A stretch of DNA of 64,000 nt from Hormiphora californensis. Taxonomy: Eukaryota; Animalia; Ctenophora. Each line of letters begins with the position of its first letter. Position 1 is the stretch's first letter. The translations under genes and the position numbers were made by a program. Under the pieces are notes generated by a model. That model ran no database searches, was not told the origin of the DNA, and saw only the letters and a list, made by a program, of their open reading frames with translations. Location: positions 2,604,001 to 2,668,000 of the forward strand of contig CM035351.1 of NCBI GenBank assembly GCA_020137815.1. Direction: 5' to 3'. Of this stretch, positions 4,499 to 44,352 are shown in pieces.

Positions 4499-4588
4499 TT
4501 GGTGACATTGACACCTAGTGCGTGCGAGATCGAGCTCGCACATGTGTGTGAGCTCAATCTTGGTCGCGCACGGTGTCTATGTCACCAA
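4499..4588. mobile_element. 90-bp palindromic micro-element with TTGGT...ACCAA termini
   Basis: Arms ttggtgacattgacacc / ggtgtctatgtcaccaa (16/17 complementary); flanks cGAGAAAAG and tGAGAAAAG (9-bp TSD with 1 mismatch). Confidence 0.7.
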
Positions 4589-5282
4589 TGAGAAAAGTAG
4601 ATGATATCGGCAATTGAAAAAGAGATGGTATAGAGATTTTGAGAGATGTGACACGTTCTCGCTGCCCATTTGTTATACAATGTACTACATCTTTCTCACT
4701 GTTATTAAACCCCGACTATTTTAATATCCGATAATAACGGGGACCATCCACACTGAAAGACGTGTCTACATCTCGACCGACGACCTTCAGCGCCGCGTTT
4801 AGTAACTAAACGTGTGTAGCGGTGCCGACGCCATTTTCATCCTCAGATCGGGTCGGTGCCGCCAAACTGAAATAAACACGCTCACGGGTTATGTTCTAGG
4901 GCGAGGTGTCACATTGACTCACGGTTAATTATATAGCTAGATTGACCGTGGTCCGTGACGCATCGCCCTACAAAACACCCTTCCTGAGCGGCACGTTGTT
5001 CACCAGGATGGCCCCCAGTGTAATAACAAATTGAAACTCGGGATATAATTACTGATAAAATGAGTTCATACCTAAAGTTGTATAAATCATAATTCATAAC
5101 CAATGATAGCTCGCACAGTCAGTGTGTAAACCACCTTATATCACCTCACAGTCGTGATACTAAAAACACCCCCTTTTCTCTCAGTCTACTCATGTCCCGT
5201 GCATTCACAGCATATATTTCAAACATCAAACCAACTTCCCCGATGAAAAAAAGAAAGAAACAGAACGTTTGACTCAACATCA

Positions 5283-8200
5283 TTATATTTGGGATGATAA
5301 AAACAAAGGTTCATTGTACAAAGGGCTGGACATCTTGTAAGTTTGTTTTAATGGTAGCAAATGTCGGCCTGTCCGCTGCTCTTGAGGACCAGCATTTCTT
5401 CATTACATTGTACATGGCATCCGGACATCCCTCTGGTTTATCCATTCGATAGCCGTTTTGTACTTTTTCTAAAACTTCGTGCAGAGGCTGAGGGGGGAAG
5501 GTTGGTGTTAAAAACTCTTCATGAATTTGATTTGTGTACTGGTAGTAAATAACTGGAAGTATTTCTAGATAAGATCAGATATTCACACTCACAATTCGAG
5601 GGTACGGTACTCGTCCAAATGAGTATATTTCCCACATGAGTACACCAAAGCTCCAAACATCACTTTTAGTAGTAAAATCCTGTAATGAATGGGGGGGTTG
5701 TTAGACTAAGTTTTGGGGGGGTTTAACCCGGAAGCTGCACTATGAAGTTCACATTGGGCGGGGGGGGGGGCTCAGCTCTGAAAATGTGAAATTCAAAGTG
5801 AAGTGTAGGAAGGTGTGTGTAAAGTTAGTGCCGCGCAGAAGAAGTGCTGAAAAAGTACTTTTAATTTGGGATCCAACGCGCGCGCTACAACTTTATCCAC
5901 GGACGTTTTGGGTTGTACGTTGGGAATATTTTCATGGTTTATTCATCATTCAAAATGGACAGCGGACACGGTCACTAATTAGAGGATTATGCTAGAGAGA
6001 GGAAGATAGAGGAATAACTGCGTAACAAGGAAAATTAGGCAAATTTAATTTGTAAGGCAAATATTCGCCGCCGTTTAGTTGTTGTCTGCTAACATTTATT
6101 ATTGAGCCTTCTAAAATTGTAGACGCTCTTTTAACCAGGAAGGCTCTCCAATAAGGATCATGGGCTAATAAATCTTGGCAAGTAGTTATAGAGTGAAGCA
6201 TGAATGAGCGATTGGGTGGTCAATGTTTGAGAGTATTTATAAACATATCGCTTTCGGTAGCGGTAGGAAGTAGAAATTGTTATAGTAGTTAGATAGAGAA
6301 TGAGAGAGAGGCGATTCTATACGTCATTAAATACACAAACACTATTACACACTTACATTATTGTCTACTAAGGCTTCTGGAGCACTCCATTTCACTCGAA
6401 ACTTGCCCCCTGCTTGGACGTGCTCGAGTTTACTGCTCAACCCAAAATCTGACACTTTTGCTAGTCCGGTTTCAGCTGATTAGAACATTGGCAGCCGCCA
6501 AATCTCTGAAAATATGGTGGACTTGAGAGGTGGGAATATATTGGTTACATCTCTGGAGATTAAAATATTGAAATACTCCAGAAATCTTTTGAAATGTTTT
6601 AGAAAGTATACCTGTGGATGACATTTTTTGATTCCAGGTAAACCATCGCTTTACACACGTCCCTGTTAAATTTGAGAAATGTTAAAAACTATGTTAAAAT
6701 GTTACAAACTATGTTACACACAACAGGAGAGATAAAGCCATATACTAGTGCGTACCATGTAAACCGATACTGATCTGCTAGCTTTATCACTGCCCTTCCC
6801 CGTGACTGGAGATACAACGTCAGGGAACCCTGAGAAATGGTTTAGTGTTAATAAAATACTGGATATACGTTATTAATTATTTCCCTCCCTCTCTCTCTGT
6901 AATATATCCTGAGTATATAATATCTCCCACTCTCTCTCACATGCTATGTTCACACCCTGTTATAATACACACTGGACTTGTTCCACACACCGCCACACCT
7001 AGCGCTAGGAAAACTAGGATAAACCCTCCTTTACATTTACAAAATTTCTAGTGGGCTAATGTGAGAGAGGTTCAAGCAAGGCAAGGATCAGGCGGGGGAG
7101 GGAGAGTCCGTATAGGCCTCGGAGACAAAAATCTTTCCATTCCCTTTAATTGCTCGCTCTCCCTCTTTTCGAATTAGTCACACCAACAATAAAGAACTCA
7201 ATGCTATGCTCAGCTTAGTCTGATTCATAATTCAACACTCTCTCTCTGCGTTACGTTATGTTCCTTTAGGACCAGGGTGACAGGCGCTTAAACAGCATAA
7301 AACATGCAGGGGAAACCACTGTTTAATAAAATACCAGTTCTTCTTTGACTTGTTACTCTACTCTTGTTAGTCCAATTAAACCTTTTTATGGCGTTCTTCT
7401 ACAATAAAAACCCCGTCTACTCATTTTGTCCAGCCGGAAGGAGAAAACTAAACTTCCTCATTGATATGCGGCTTATAAACAATCAACCGATCCTTATTCT
7501 CTAAACCTTTTTATGTCTAGCACAGTCACGCTCAACATACAGTCTATCTTATAGTTGGTGACACAGTCAACCCTACACTACCAGCCGCTCAAAGCGTGTC
7601 AAACGAAGCCCGCTCAAAGCGTCACCAAATAGCTACGATGTTGAACTATTTGGTTCTTCTGATTTTCCTGTGTCATCACAGCTTCTCAGAAGCAGGTAAC
7701 CAGATAGGATCTGCCCTCTGCGGTAGTGAAACATTTGTTTGAAGTAACCATTAATTGAATCGTTTCTCTTTGTTTTTCGCTCTTGGGTAACCAGTTGAGT
7801 ACTCTCGATGGGAGGCGTCTTCTACGTATTCATTTGATTTCTTTAATTCAGCCCTCTCCACAGGTGACTGTGTGGACAAAATCCAATACCCAGCGGTCCA
7901 AGACAATACCAGTTATGCCATGCAGATTATAAACGAAGGTGATGGGTATTTCACAGAGTTCACTTTCGCGTTTTGGCTCAGATATGATACCTGGCCGGAA
8001 GATGAACAAAGCGCTATATCTTACTCAACTGGAGACGGTGGAGATAACGACGAATCTATCAGTGTGTGGTTTTATGAGAATAAATATCTAAAGATATGGT
8101 ACACATGGGATTTTCAAATAGGTTAGTTAATGAATTACAAATATAATATTTGAAATATTTAATGAACTATACATTCTATTCAGCCAGGTTTAATAGTTCC

Positions 8201-42919: not shown

Positions 42920-42992
42920 GAGAGAGAGAGAGAGAGAGAGAGAGAGAGAGAGAGAGAGAGAGAGAGAGAGAGAGAGAGAGAGAGAGAGAGAG
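42920..42992. repeat. (AG)n microsatellite
   Basis: Direct sequence. Confidence 0.95.
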
Positions 42993-44294
42993 ACAACAAA
43001 ATGAAAGATTGAAAGAGGTATGGGATCGAAAGAACAATGGATTCTGTTTCTAAGCTTTCTCTGCAACAAATAGAGAGAGAGACGTGGCGAGGGAGCTACG
43101 TGAAGAGTGTGTAAAAATTGCAAAAATGAGAATTGAGTGAGGTTTCAATATGGTAAGATTTTACAATCATATTGGGGACTGGGGAGGGTAAAACTTGGCA
43201 AGATTATTATGATTATTGTTACTCGAAAGTAGACGAGATAGAGGGAAAAAGATTCATAGAGAGAGATTAAAAGATAGCAGTAGAGAGGAATACAGAGGGA
43301 AAGCTTAGGAGGACCTCCGTAGCATATCAAAAATATGAGACACAAATTATGGCACATTATTTACGGAATGAGGGATGGGCTACTGAAGATAGAACATGGT
43401 AGAGGGTTGTTGAGTGAGTAGAGGGGGCATGGAAGGGAGGGAAACGGGCCAAAATATGGGAGCGAGAGAAGAAAAATTAGGAATGTGAGTCGGAATCTTA
43501 GCGAGGTGAATTAATAATTTCACGTCAAGAGCTAGCAAAGGAAATTAGGAACGAGCCTGCACATGTAACGATCGGATAAAAGGTCCTACGAAATGAACAT
43601 ATATTACCTCACACTAAATTGTTGGGAAAAGAGGGGTAAGAAGGACAACTGAAAAGTGAGAATCGTCATCACAGAAATATTTAAGGGCCTCGTCATCAAA
43701 TTAATATTTACCTACTGCCCCCTAGAGATATCGTCAGATCCCTAATTTAGGCGTGTGACGATATCTCTCTGATATCTCCTCAGCTATGACGTCACAACTG
43801 ACAACCACTAAACTAACTAAACTAACTGGACGTCGCGTCTGAGAGCGTTTCACCGACAACTGTTCGGCACACGTGAGGGGATGGTCCCGGAAAATAATGC
43901 CTGAACACCGATTTAATGTGGAGAGCGAGTGTGTGTGAGAGAGAGAATGTGTGAGTGAGAGTGAGAGTTGAACTAAACTGAGAGTTTATTAGCAGAATTC
44001 CTCCAGTTTTTCTCACACCCGCCTCTCTTCTTTCACACGAAATGATACACTTGTACAATTAAAGAGACACTTGTACAACTACAGCAACACACACGTATAG
44101 TGAGCACTTAGGCGTGACTCAATTTTGTTACAATTTGTCCTCACCACTCACATACAGAGCAACAACAACTGAATTACTATAACACCACACGAAATAACGT
44201 TTAGGTTGCTGTGTAGGCTACATAAAAAGAGAACAATTCAAAGTTTAGGTGTGTGTCCTAACTAAATTTTATTCCCCCCGGTTCCCCCTACCTC

Positions 44295-44352
44295 TTGGTA
44301 ACGAAGTTACCCCTCCCTTGCCAGCGCGCGAGAGGGGTTATTTCGTAACCAA
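44295..44352. mobile_element. 58-bp single-hairpin micro-element with the same termini as 41450-42025
   Basis: ttggtaacgaagttacccctc...gaggggttatttcgtaaccaa with 8-bp TSD CCTACCTC; degraded copy at approx. 52517-52570. Confidence 0.85.

What the first reader, a model, noticed from the sequence alone, without database searches (positions are those of the whole stretch)
4499..44352. Hairpin-ended TTG...CAA DNA elements with 8-10 bp TSDs and collapsed 'solo' forms
Seen: five separate insertions share TTG...CAA termini and flanking direct repeats: 4499-4588 (90 bp, c/tGAGAAAAG), 10695-11048 (354 bp, AGTTACCC), 35190-35756 (567 bp, AACTCGCGTC), 41450-42025 (576 bp, CACCCACAC) and 44295-44352 (58 bp, CCTACCTC). 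In the long ones each end is itself a hairpin overlapping the inner part of an imperfect TIR (A-loop-A' ... A-loop-A'), so the two ends are inverted and direct repeats at once. Two left hairpins are followed by AATACCGC. The 58-bp element has the ends of the 576-bp one fused into a single hairpin. Inference: recombination or deletion between the end hairpins leaves a TSD-flanked solo hairpin, a DNA-transposon analogue of a solo-LTR. The TSD length fits MULE, Merlin, Zisupton/KDZ or AcademH, but I cannot assign the termini to any of them.
Basis: partly seen in the sequence, partly recalled or inferred. Interest (0 to 1): 0.8.

Follow-up and report, generated by a model that had tools for sequence, protein, structure and literature searches.

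The report
Comb jelly transposons collapsing into hairpins
These are real, high-copy, non-coding cut-and-paste transposons in comb jelly DNA whose two ends each carry a small hairpin, and copies repeatedly lose everything between the hairpins, likely during DNA repair, leaving 23-67 bp remnants that show how miniature transposons can be born.

Summary
All five elements are at the stated coordinates with TTG..CAA ends and 8-10 bp duplications (one has a mismatch). The host is a ctenophore. The 576-bp element is a high-copy insertion that is absent from other alleles. The 58-bp element is its relative's left outer 11 bp joined to the right-end hairpin. Collapse is recurrent: all 15 listed contig joints (of 126) in four samples jump from the left hairpin to the right one. 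Correction: the listed joins lie loop-to-loop, some with filler, so end-joining at hairpins fits better than plain recombination between direct repeats. No locus with both a long and a solo allele was found, and no transposase. The superfamily stays open: Mutator-like is my best guess; Merlin and KolobokP fail on their termini. TSD-flanked solo ends (KolobokP) and MITE birth by microhomology deletion are published, so this is a new variant of a known kind.

The parts
41450..42025 (+). 576-bp non-autonomous element, long form; TTG..CAA; 9-bp TSD; left hairpin 41461-41490 (AT-rich loop), right hairpin 41981-42014 (GC-rich loop)
   Evidence: high depth, sharp ends, empty alleles and hairpin-to-hairpin joints; empty paralogous site near 50146
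44295..44352 (-). 58-bp solo of the 576 family: left outer 11 bp + right hairpin + right outer 11 bp; 8-bp TSD
   Evidence: many unrelated flanks end at 44294/5 and 44352 in four runs
52517..52565 (-). degraded copy of the 58-bp solo in the duplicated segment (end approximate)
35190..35756 (+). 567-bp long form of a related family; 10-bp TSD; CCCCT..AGGGG hairpin cores, AT-rich left loop, GC-rich right loop, inverted repeat continues inside the hairpins
   Evidence: copy number not tested
10695..11048 (+). 354-bp long form of a third family; 8-bp TSD; branched left hairpin, simple right hairpin, weak TIR
   Evidence: copy number not tested
4499..4588 (.). 90-bp hairpin element; 9-bp TSD with 1 mismatch; candidate solo, no long parent found
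61201..61284 (+). 84-bp CTG..CAG element with two identical 19-bp terminal hairpins in direct orientation; 8-bp TSD (not in the finding)
47708..47730 (+). 23-bp solo of the 84-bp family, identical to the predicted collapse product; exact 8-bp TSD; paralogous copy at 55938-55960
47558..47580 (+). second 23-bp solo, 2 loop differences; 8-bp TSD with 1 mismatch; paralogous copy at 55790-55811
488..553 (+). 66-bp CTG..CAG element, exact 8-bp TSD; right end is a short palindrome, left end a degenerate direct copy of it (not in the finding)
   Evidence: end palindrome read from the sequence

Best explanation
These are high-copy, non-coding DNA transposons of a ctenophore whose ends carry hairpins, and copies repeatedly lose the DNA between the two hairpins, likely when repair of the gap left by an excised copy stalls at the hairpins and the two short new ends are joined. 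Steps: (1) shown: TIR-like YTG..CAR ends, 8-10 bp TSDs, many insertion sites, empty alleles; (2) inferred: mobilised in trans by a DDE transposase making an 8-10 bp staggered cut, most likely Mutator-like (about 40%), which binds the palindromic ends; (3) shown: collapse products exist at many different junctions, all listed ones confined to the two hairpins; (4) inferred: after excision, synthesis from the sister chromatid aborts 20-35 bases in, at the hairpins; the ends either anneal through the arms, which are direct repeats because each end is a palindrome (clean solos: 58 bp, 23 bp), or are end-joined loop to loop with 0-2 shared bases or filler; the original TSD is kept; (5) inferred: solos of 40-70 bp keep both outer ends and some are amplified as tiny MITEs, while 23-bp solos are probably dead scars, too short for two ends to be brought together.
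For: Insertions: X1 contig 1 runs from 41444 straight to 42026; contigs of X5 (depth 589.4, 301 bp) and X9 (depth 48.3, 401 bp) show variants in both flanks and are too short to hold the element (the last two inferred from matching depths); the window's own paralogue lacks it. High copy: X1 depth about 55 in flanks, 8,600-45,700 inside, 142,000 in the left-end bin; 27-59 contigs per run with unrelated flanks at each exact end. Collapse: 15 of 15 listed joints go from 41469-41482 to 41989-42005, giving 41-67 bp products before filler; a random deletion would do so with p about 0.004; seen in four samples of two organisms. L004 is a 66-bp solo with 29 bases identical to the 576 left end. 58-bp matches the 5'-arm crossover product at 47/58; the 23-bp solo equals the product predicted from the 84-bp element. 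Filler between the sides of joints (table 5c). Some joints are at depth 400-870 in X1 against 44-150 for most, which fits amplification of some solos or recurrence at one microhomology. Precedent for aborted gap repair plus microhomology joining: PMC3814204 passages. A MULE with 8 or 9 bp TSD and a palindromic end that matters for binding: PMC5499845 passages.
Against: No locus was found with a long allele and a solo allele: contigs spanning the 58-bp site in X1 (record 6), X9 (record 28) and X6 (records 20, 21) hold no long form. L004 has no clear TSD. Only 15 of 126 joints were shown, picked by support, and a joint needs about 20 aligned bases a side, so the set is neither random nor independent. 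Contig depth is no copy number by the tool's own warning, and X1 may be the assembly's source. TSDs of the collapsed contigs were not visible. No transposase in 158 reading frames scanned or in any locus. Nothing here shows that collapse depends on excision. The TIRs are shorter than, and the termini unlike, typical MULE ends (recalled).
Confidence: 0.5

Rival explanations
1. Collapse needs no transposase: on single-stranded or supercoiled DNA the two ends pair for about 20 bp (outer end plus first arm) and stop at the unlike loops; replication slips across this stem or a structure-specific nuclease cuts at the hairpin tips, and the ends are rejoined.
For: Breakpoints sit where pairing between the two ends stops; hairpins are stable.
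Against: Indirect only: the window's long, near-perfect foldbacks, better cruciform substrates, persist at 0.9-1.3 kb; filler at joints fits break repair more than slippage (PMC3814204 passage).
Confidence: 0.22
2. Solos are ordinary MITE families amplified from a few founders; the clustering of breakpoints reflects selection for minimal mobile ends and the detection limit of the read-laying tool.
For: End depth is 2.6-5.5 times that of the next bin inside; some joints occur in all four runs at above single-copy depth; the 58-bp site is shared by samples and holds no long allele.
Against: The 15 listed junctions are all different and most lie at one- to three-copy depth in X1; deletions keeping more internal DNA would be easier to detect yet none is among the 15; a 23-bp element is an unlikely transposition substrate (inference).
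Confidence: 0.13
3. One reading: homologous recombination or slippage between the direct repeats is the main route, as for solo LTRs.
For: The 23-bp solo is the exact product of a 19-bp perfect direct repeat, and the 58-bp fits an arm crossover. Arm crossovers leave about 20 alignable bases on one side and are under-detected.
Against: None of the 15 listed joints is an exact arm-to-arm crossover; L004 joins loop to loop; shared arms in the 576 family are only about 9-10 bp.
Confidence: 0.1
4. Reverse direction: long forms arise when other DNA inserts into a solo hairpin and duplicates it (the 19-bp repeat of the 84-bp element as a target duplication).
For: The 84-bp element has an exact 19-bp direct repeat with the loop in the same orientation.
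Against: The inverted repeat continues inside the hairpins in the 84, 567 and 576 elements, left and right loops differ in kind in the 567 and 576, and collapsed joints are mosaics of left and right loop.
Confidence: 0.03

Closest known systems
KolobokP solo LTDRs (Kojima and Bao 2022, PMC9587614; abstract, first part of Results and section 8 read)
   Same: DNA transposon whose ends are direct repeats; TSD-flanked solo ends arise by loss of the interior and some may move on their own.
   Different: KolobokP ends are 450 or 660 bp, each a full TIR-bounded unit, with RR..YY termini and 3-5 bp TSDs. Here the repeats are 19-35 bp palindromic cores, the inner side of each hairpin is not a terminus, termini are YTG..CAR and TSDs 8-10 bp.
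Gnome, Elf and Goblin MITEs from Ozma in Aedes aegypti (Yang et al. 2013, PMC3814204; passages read)
   Same: Miniatures formed by internal deletion, explained by aborted gap repair and microhomology-mediated joining, with filler scars.
   Different: Three rare events at scattered 6-8 bp microhomologies in a Tc1/mariner element; here many junctions are confined to two end hairpins and products are 23-67 bp.
MULEs, e.g. Muta1 of Aedes aegypti (PMC5499845; passages read)
   Same: 8 or 9 bp TSD within one family; palindromic end whose symmetry affects transposase binding.
   Different: Muta1 has 145-bp TIRs of tandem 12-mers and a 10-bp GGG-starting palindrome; no solo forms in the passages seen; no transposase found here.
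AcademH and KDZ (Zisupton, Dileera, Kyakuja)
   Same: TSD lengths: AcademH 9 or 10 bp (PMC10045372 passage); Zisupton and Dileera 8 bp, Kyakuja 7 bp (PMC12730594 passages).
   Different: 0 of 10 fungal KDZ consensus 5' ends seen start with TTG or CTG; AcademH termini could not be seen (paper not held).

Membership tests
Non-autonomous TIR transposon / MITE | Short, non-coding, inverted ends, target-site duplication | tested here: met
Non-autonomous TIR transposon / MITE | Many dispersed copies with sharp ends; empty sites | tested here: met
   576 and 58 only; not tested for 90, 354, 567, 66, 84, 23
MULE / MuDR | TSD of 8-10 bp, variable within a family | tested here: met
   9 bp (576) and 8 bp (58) in one family, 10 bp (567); ranges from PMC10045372 and PMC5499845 passages
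MULE / MuDR | Long TIRs and G-starting termini (typical, not universal; recalled, and Muta1) | tested here: not met
   imperfect TIRs of about 20-65 bp, YTG termini:
MULE / MuDR | MULE DDE transposase in an element with the same ends | not testable with these tools
   no genome held; no transposase domain in the window; scans found no long copy
AcademH | 9 or 10 bp TSD | tested here: inconclusive
   met by 3 of 5 TTG elements (576, 567, 90), 8 bp in the other two; CTG elements can be read as 8 or 9 bp
AcademH | Academ transposase plus helicase; termini | not testable with these tools
   paper not held; no autonomous copy
KDZ (Zisupton, Dileera, Kyakuja) | 7-8 bp TSD and family termini | tested here: inconclusive
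   8 bp fits some elements, not the 9-10 bp ones; 0 of 10 fungal 5' ends match; animal Zisupton ends not seen
Merlin | 5'-GG termini with 8-9 bp TSD (PMC8101967 passages) | tested here: not met
   termini are TTG or CTG under every exact symmetric reading
KolobokP | RR..YY termini, 3-5 bp TSD, 450 or 660 bp direct repeats | tested here: not met
KolobokP | TSD-flanked solo ends | tested here: met
   works alike, not a member: 44295-44352, 47708-47730
One superfamily for all five (Repbase rule: same TSD length, first 11 bases with at most 1 mismatch; PMC4455052 passage) | Terminal 11 bases and TSD length shared | tested here: not met
   576 and 58 share the 11 bases but differ in TSD length; 567, 354 and 90 differ from them at several of the 11 bases. 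Kinship rests on architecture.

The most novel reading that the evidence does not exclude
An undescribed lineage of cut-and-paste transposons with YTG..CAR ends whose transposase recognises a subterminal hairpin as a structure (hairpin position is kept at 11-14 bases from the end across three families whose stems differ in sequence) while still making an 8-10 bp staggered target cut, and whose own cutting at the hairpins produces the solos: a built-in MITE factory, possibly shared with sponges.
Probability: 0.17. Interest if true: 0.8.

Novelty: new variant of a known kind. Interest (0 to 1): 0.5.

Why it matters
How MITEs arise from longer transposons is mostly inferred from a few reconstructed events. 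Here one genome holds many independent collapse junctions tied to a defined end structure, so breakpoints, filler, TSD retention and later amplification can be counted directly. The 23-67 bp remnants are near or below the size that repeat finders keep, so they may be an unannotated source of small indels and hairpins in ctenophore non-coding DNA. The ends match no family I could check, so the autonomous partner may be an undescribed lineage.

Tried and rejected
Search for an autonomous copy: viral contigs 0 hits in 3 scans, prokaryote genomes 0 in 2, metagenomes 4 hits of which L001-L003 are chance matches without hairpin or second end and L004 is a solo. Pfam scans of 9 and 149 reading frames found host genes only (frames inside known genes and simple repeats were left out). 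Rfam: nothing. The first TSD scan with free termini was flawed by maximal extension, missed known elements and was replaced. 24155-24218 (TTG..CAA, exact 8-bp repeat) does not fold (z -0.9) and is left out as doubtful; 24712-25053 overlaps a Tim17 coding match and is rejected. The relaxed scan with one TSD mismatch gave 12 hits against 0-4 in 10 shuffles, so single-mismatch cases need family support. Long foldbacks have no TSD that I could find and are not counted. Runs with a small share of words were not used for habitat. Ten paper searches found no description of this architecture or these ends; Repbase and Dfam could not be searched, the AcademH and original Zisupton papers were not seen, so absence from print is not established. 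Three ctenophore papers (passages of PMC8527503, PMC12221973, PMC11797021) do not describe such families.
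Full report
Observation. All five elements are at the stated coordinates, begin TTG and end CAA. The duplications are exact for 10695 (8 bp), 35190 (10 bp), 41450 (9 bp) and 44295 (8 bp); 4499 has 9 bp with one mismatch. In the three long elements a hairpin starts 11-14 bases inside each end. 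Five of the six end hairpins have z of -2.2 or lower against dinucleotide shuffles; the 576 right end has -1.4. A scan for exact duplications of 8 or more bases around stretches with complementary ends gave 8 YTG..CAR hits against 0 in each of 40 block shuffles; one hit is an internal artefact and one is doubtful. The 576/58 end motif has 5 matches in the window against 0.02 expected.

Host and setting. The window holds ordinary genes (HECT ligase, kinase, PHAF1, GCN1, NUDIX, PLAT proteins) and no transposase domain in 158 frames scanned. PHAF1 is 80% identical to a cluster that holds Mnemiopsis and Bolinopsis proteins and at most 57% to other animals, so the host is a ctenophore; the species was not determined. 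No genome is held.

They are real, mobile insertions. The window contains a noisy second copy of 40681-49015 at 49372-57225; it lacks the 576-bp element and has the 58-bp one. In public contigs, X1 record 1 runs from 41444 to 42026, an empty allele with four extra bases that may be an excision footprint or a short-repeat variant. Contigs of X5 (another sample) and X9 (organism B) appear to span both flanks without the element; this is inferred from equal depths in tables 3 and 8. Depth in X1 is about 55 in the flanks, 8,600-45,700 inside the 576 and 142,000 in its left-end bin; position 44311 of the 58 has 301,642. The tool warns that depth is no copy number, but with 27-59 contigs per run carrying unrelated flanks at each exact end, a family of hundreds to thousands of ends is the plain reading. 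X1 may be the source of the assembly; X5, X9 and X15 are other samples.

Anatomy. The 576 and 567 share a plan: an 11-13 base outer end, a hairpin with a CCCCT..AGGGG core, then a further short inverted segment containing AATAYCGC or AATRCCGC; the left loop is AT-rich and the right GC-rich. Because each end is a palindrome, the arms are also direct repeats, but only the arms (19/34 and 19/42 overall). Read on the minus strand, the 58 is the 576's left outer 11 bases, exact, followed by a right-type hairpin and right outer end: 47/58 against the product predicted for a 5'-arm crossover, 41/58 for a 3'-arm crossover. It comes from a related subfamily, not from this copy.

A second family confirms the idea. 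61201-61284 has CTG..CAG ends, an exact 8-bp duplication and two identical 19-bp hairpins in direct orientation. The motif has 6 matches against 0.08 expected. 47708-47730 is a 23-bp element identical to the predicted collapse product, with its own exact 8-bp duplication; 47558-47580 is a second with two loop differences and one TSD mismatch. 488-553 is another CTG..CAG element. In all four a G precedes the left duplication, so they can also be read as an asymmetric element with a 9-bp duplication; I cannot decide between the readings.

Collapse is recurrent. Laying contigs on the 576 listed 15 of 126 joints; all 15 go from 41469-41482 (left hairpin) to 41989-42005 (right hairpin), giving 41-67 bp before filler, and they occur in four samples. 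A random deletion has both breaks in the hairpins with p about 0.004; the 15 are the best supported, not a random draw, and the other 111 were not shown. None of the 15 is an exact arm crossover; they join loop to loop with 0-2 shared bases, and table 5c shows filler. Arm crossovers are under-detected because they leave only about 20 alignable bases on one side, so their share is unknown. Most joints in X1 are at depth 44-150, a few at 400-870. L004, a metagenome contig, is a 66-bp loop-to-loop solo of the 576 subfamily without a clear TSD. Against: at the 58-bp site contigs of X1, X6 and X9 show no long allele, so no long/solo allele pair was seen, and TSDs of the collapsed contigs were not visible.

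Mechanism. Shown: TIR-type ends, TSDs, dispersal, empty alleles, hairpin-bounded deletions. Inferred: a DDE transposase acting in trans; aborted gap repair after excision with the new strands released at the hairpins and joined through the arms or end-joined (0.5). Rivals: transposase-independent slippage or cruciform cutting (0.22), amplification of a few founder MITEs (0.13), recombination between direct repeats as the main route (0.10), insertion into solos (0.03). [quoted passage not shown] That 23-bp solos are immobile scars is inference from their size.

Comparison. KolobokP already gives TSD-flanked solo ends in a DNA transposon, but with 450 or 660 bp repeats, RR..YY termini and 3-5 bp TSDs (PMC9587614; abstract, part 1 of 3 of Results and section 8). 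MITE birth by aborted gap repair and microhomology joining is described for Ozma (PMC3814204, passages). Muta1 has 8 or 9 bp TSDs and a palindromic end that affects binding (PMC5499845, passages), which with the 8-10 bp spread makes MULE my best guess (about 40%), though the short TIRs and YTG ends are atypical (recalled). AcademH makes 9 or 10 bp TSDs (PMC10045372, passage); its paper was not held. Zisupton and Dileera make 8 bp; 0 of 10 fungal KDZ 5' ends seen in a supplement start with YTG (PMC12730594, passages and supplement rows). Merlin starts GG (PMC8101967, passages) and is rejected. hAT and P start with CA or TA (recalled) and do not fit. By the Repbase terminal rule (PMC4455052, passage) the five are not shown to be one superfamily. 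Also seen without bearing on the result: PMC3310237, PMC8527503, PMC12221973, PMC11797021, PMC12210899 (passages), PMC2872659 (abstract). Ten searches found no account of these ends; Repbase and Dfam were out of reach, and may hold them as unclassified DNA-8/9 families. An earlier unchecked note of this scan reports similar 37-63 bp collapse products in probable sponge DNA; I could not test it.

Verdict. New variant of a known kind, superfamily unassigned. Interest 0.5. The boldest reading not excluded, a new lineage whose transposase reads hairpin structure and itself generates the solos, has probability about 0.17 and would deserve 0.8.

Noticed in passing
window 22486-23825, 38324-39234, 39334-40357: Three long foldback palindromes (arms 280-560+ bp, 96-98% complementary); no flanking duplication found within 40 bp of their ends.
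   Followed up: partly
window 40681-49015 and 49372-57225: An ~8.2-kb tandem duplication whose second copy is full of 1-bp indels and matches the empty allele seen in run X1; possibly the other haplotype assembled in tandem.
   Followed up: partly
window 45873-47203 (and 54131-55442): Two head-to-tail copies of a ~668-bp unit, 97% identical, close to the 660-bp repeat size of KolobokP; ends and TSD not worked out.
   Followed up: no
window 4125-4200: Two adjacent CCCCT..AGGGG hairpins in direct repeat just after the HECT gene, like the element cores but with no duplication seen.
   Followed up: partly
window 488, 47558, 47708, 61201: A G precedes the left duplication in 4 of 4 CTG elements and a C follows the right one in 2 of 4: a target preference or a 9-bp duplication with asymmetric ends.
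   Followed up: partly
window 63374-63391: A degenerate copy of the CTG-family hairpin without clear ends.
   Followed up: no
window 25677-33400 (minus strand): GCN1 appears nearly free of introns but split into several frames, probably by assembly indels.
   Followed up: no
L004 999-1064: A 66-bp solo about 130 bp downstream of a short cysteine- and lysine-rich reading frame, without a clear target duplication.
   Followed up: partly
window 44293-44342 (runs X5 and X6): A joint that goes back 50 bases suggests a tandem or nested arrangement of 58-type ends elsewhere in the genome; loose ends at 44331 point to a commoner subfamily with a longer right loop.
   Followed up: no
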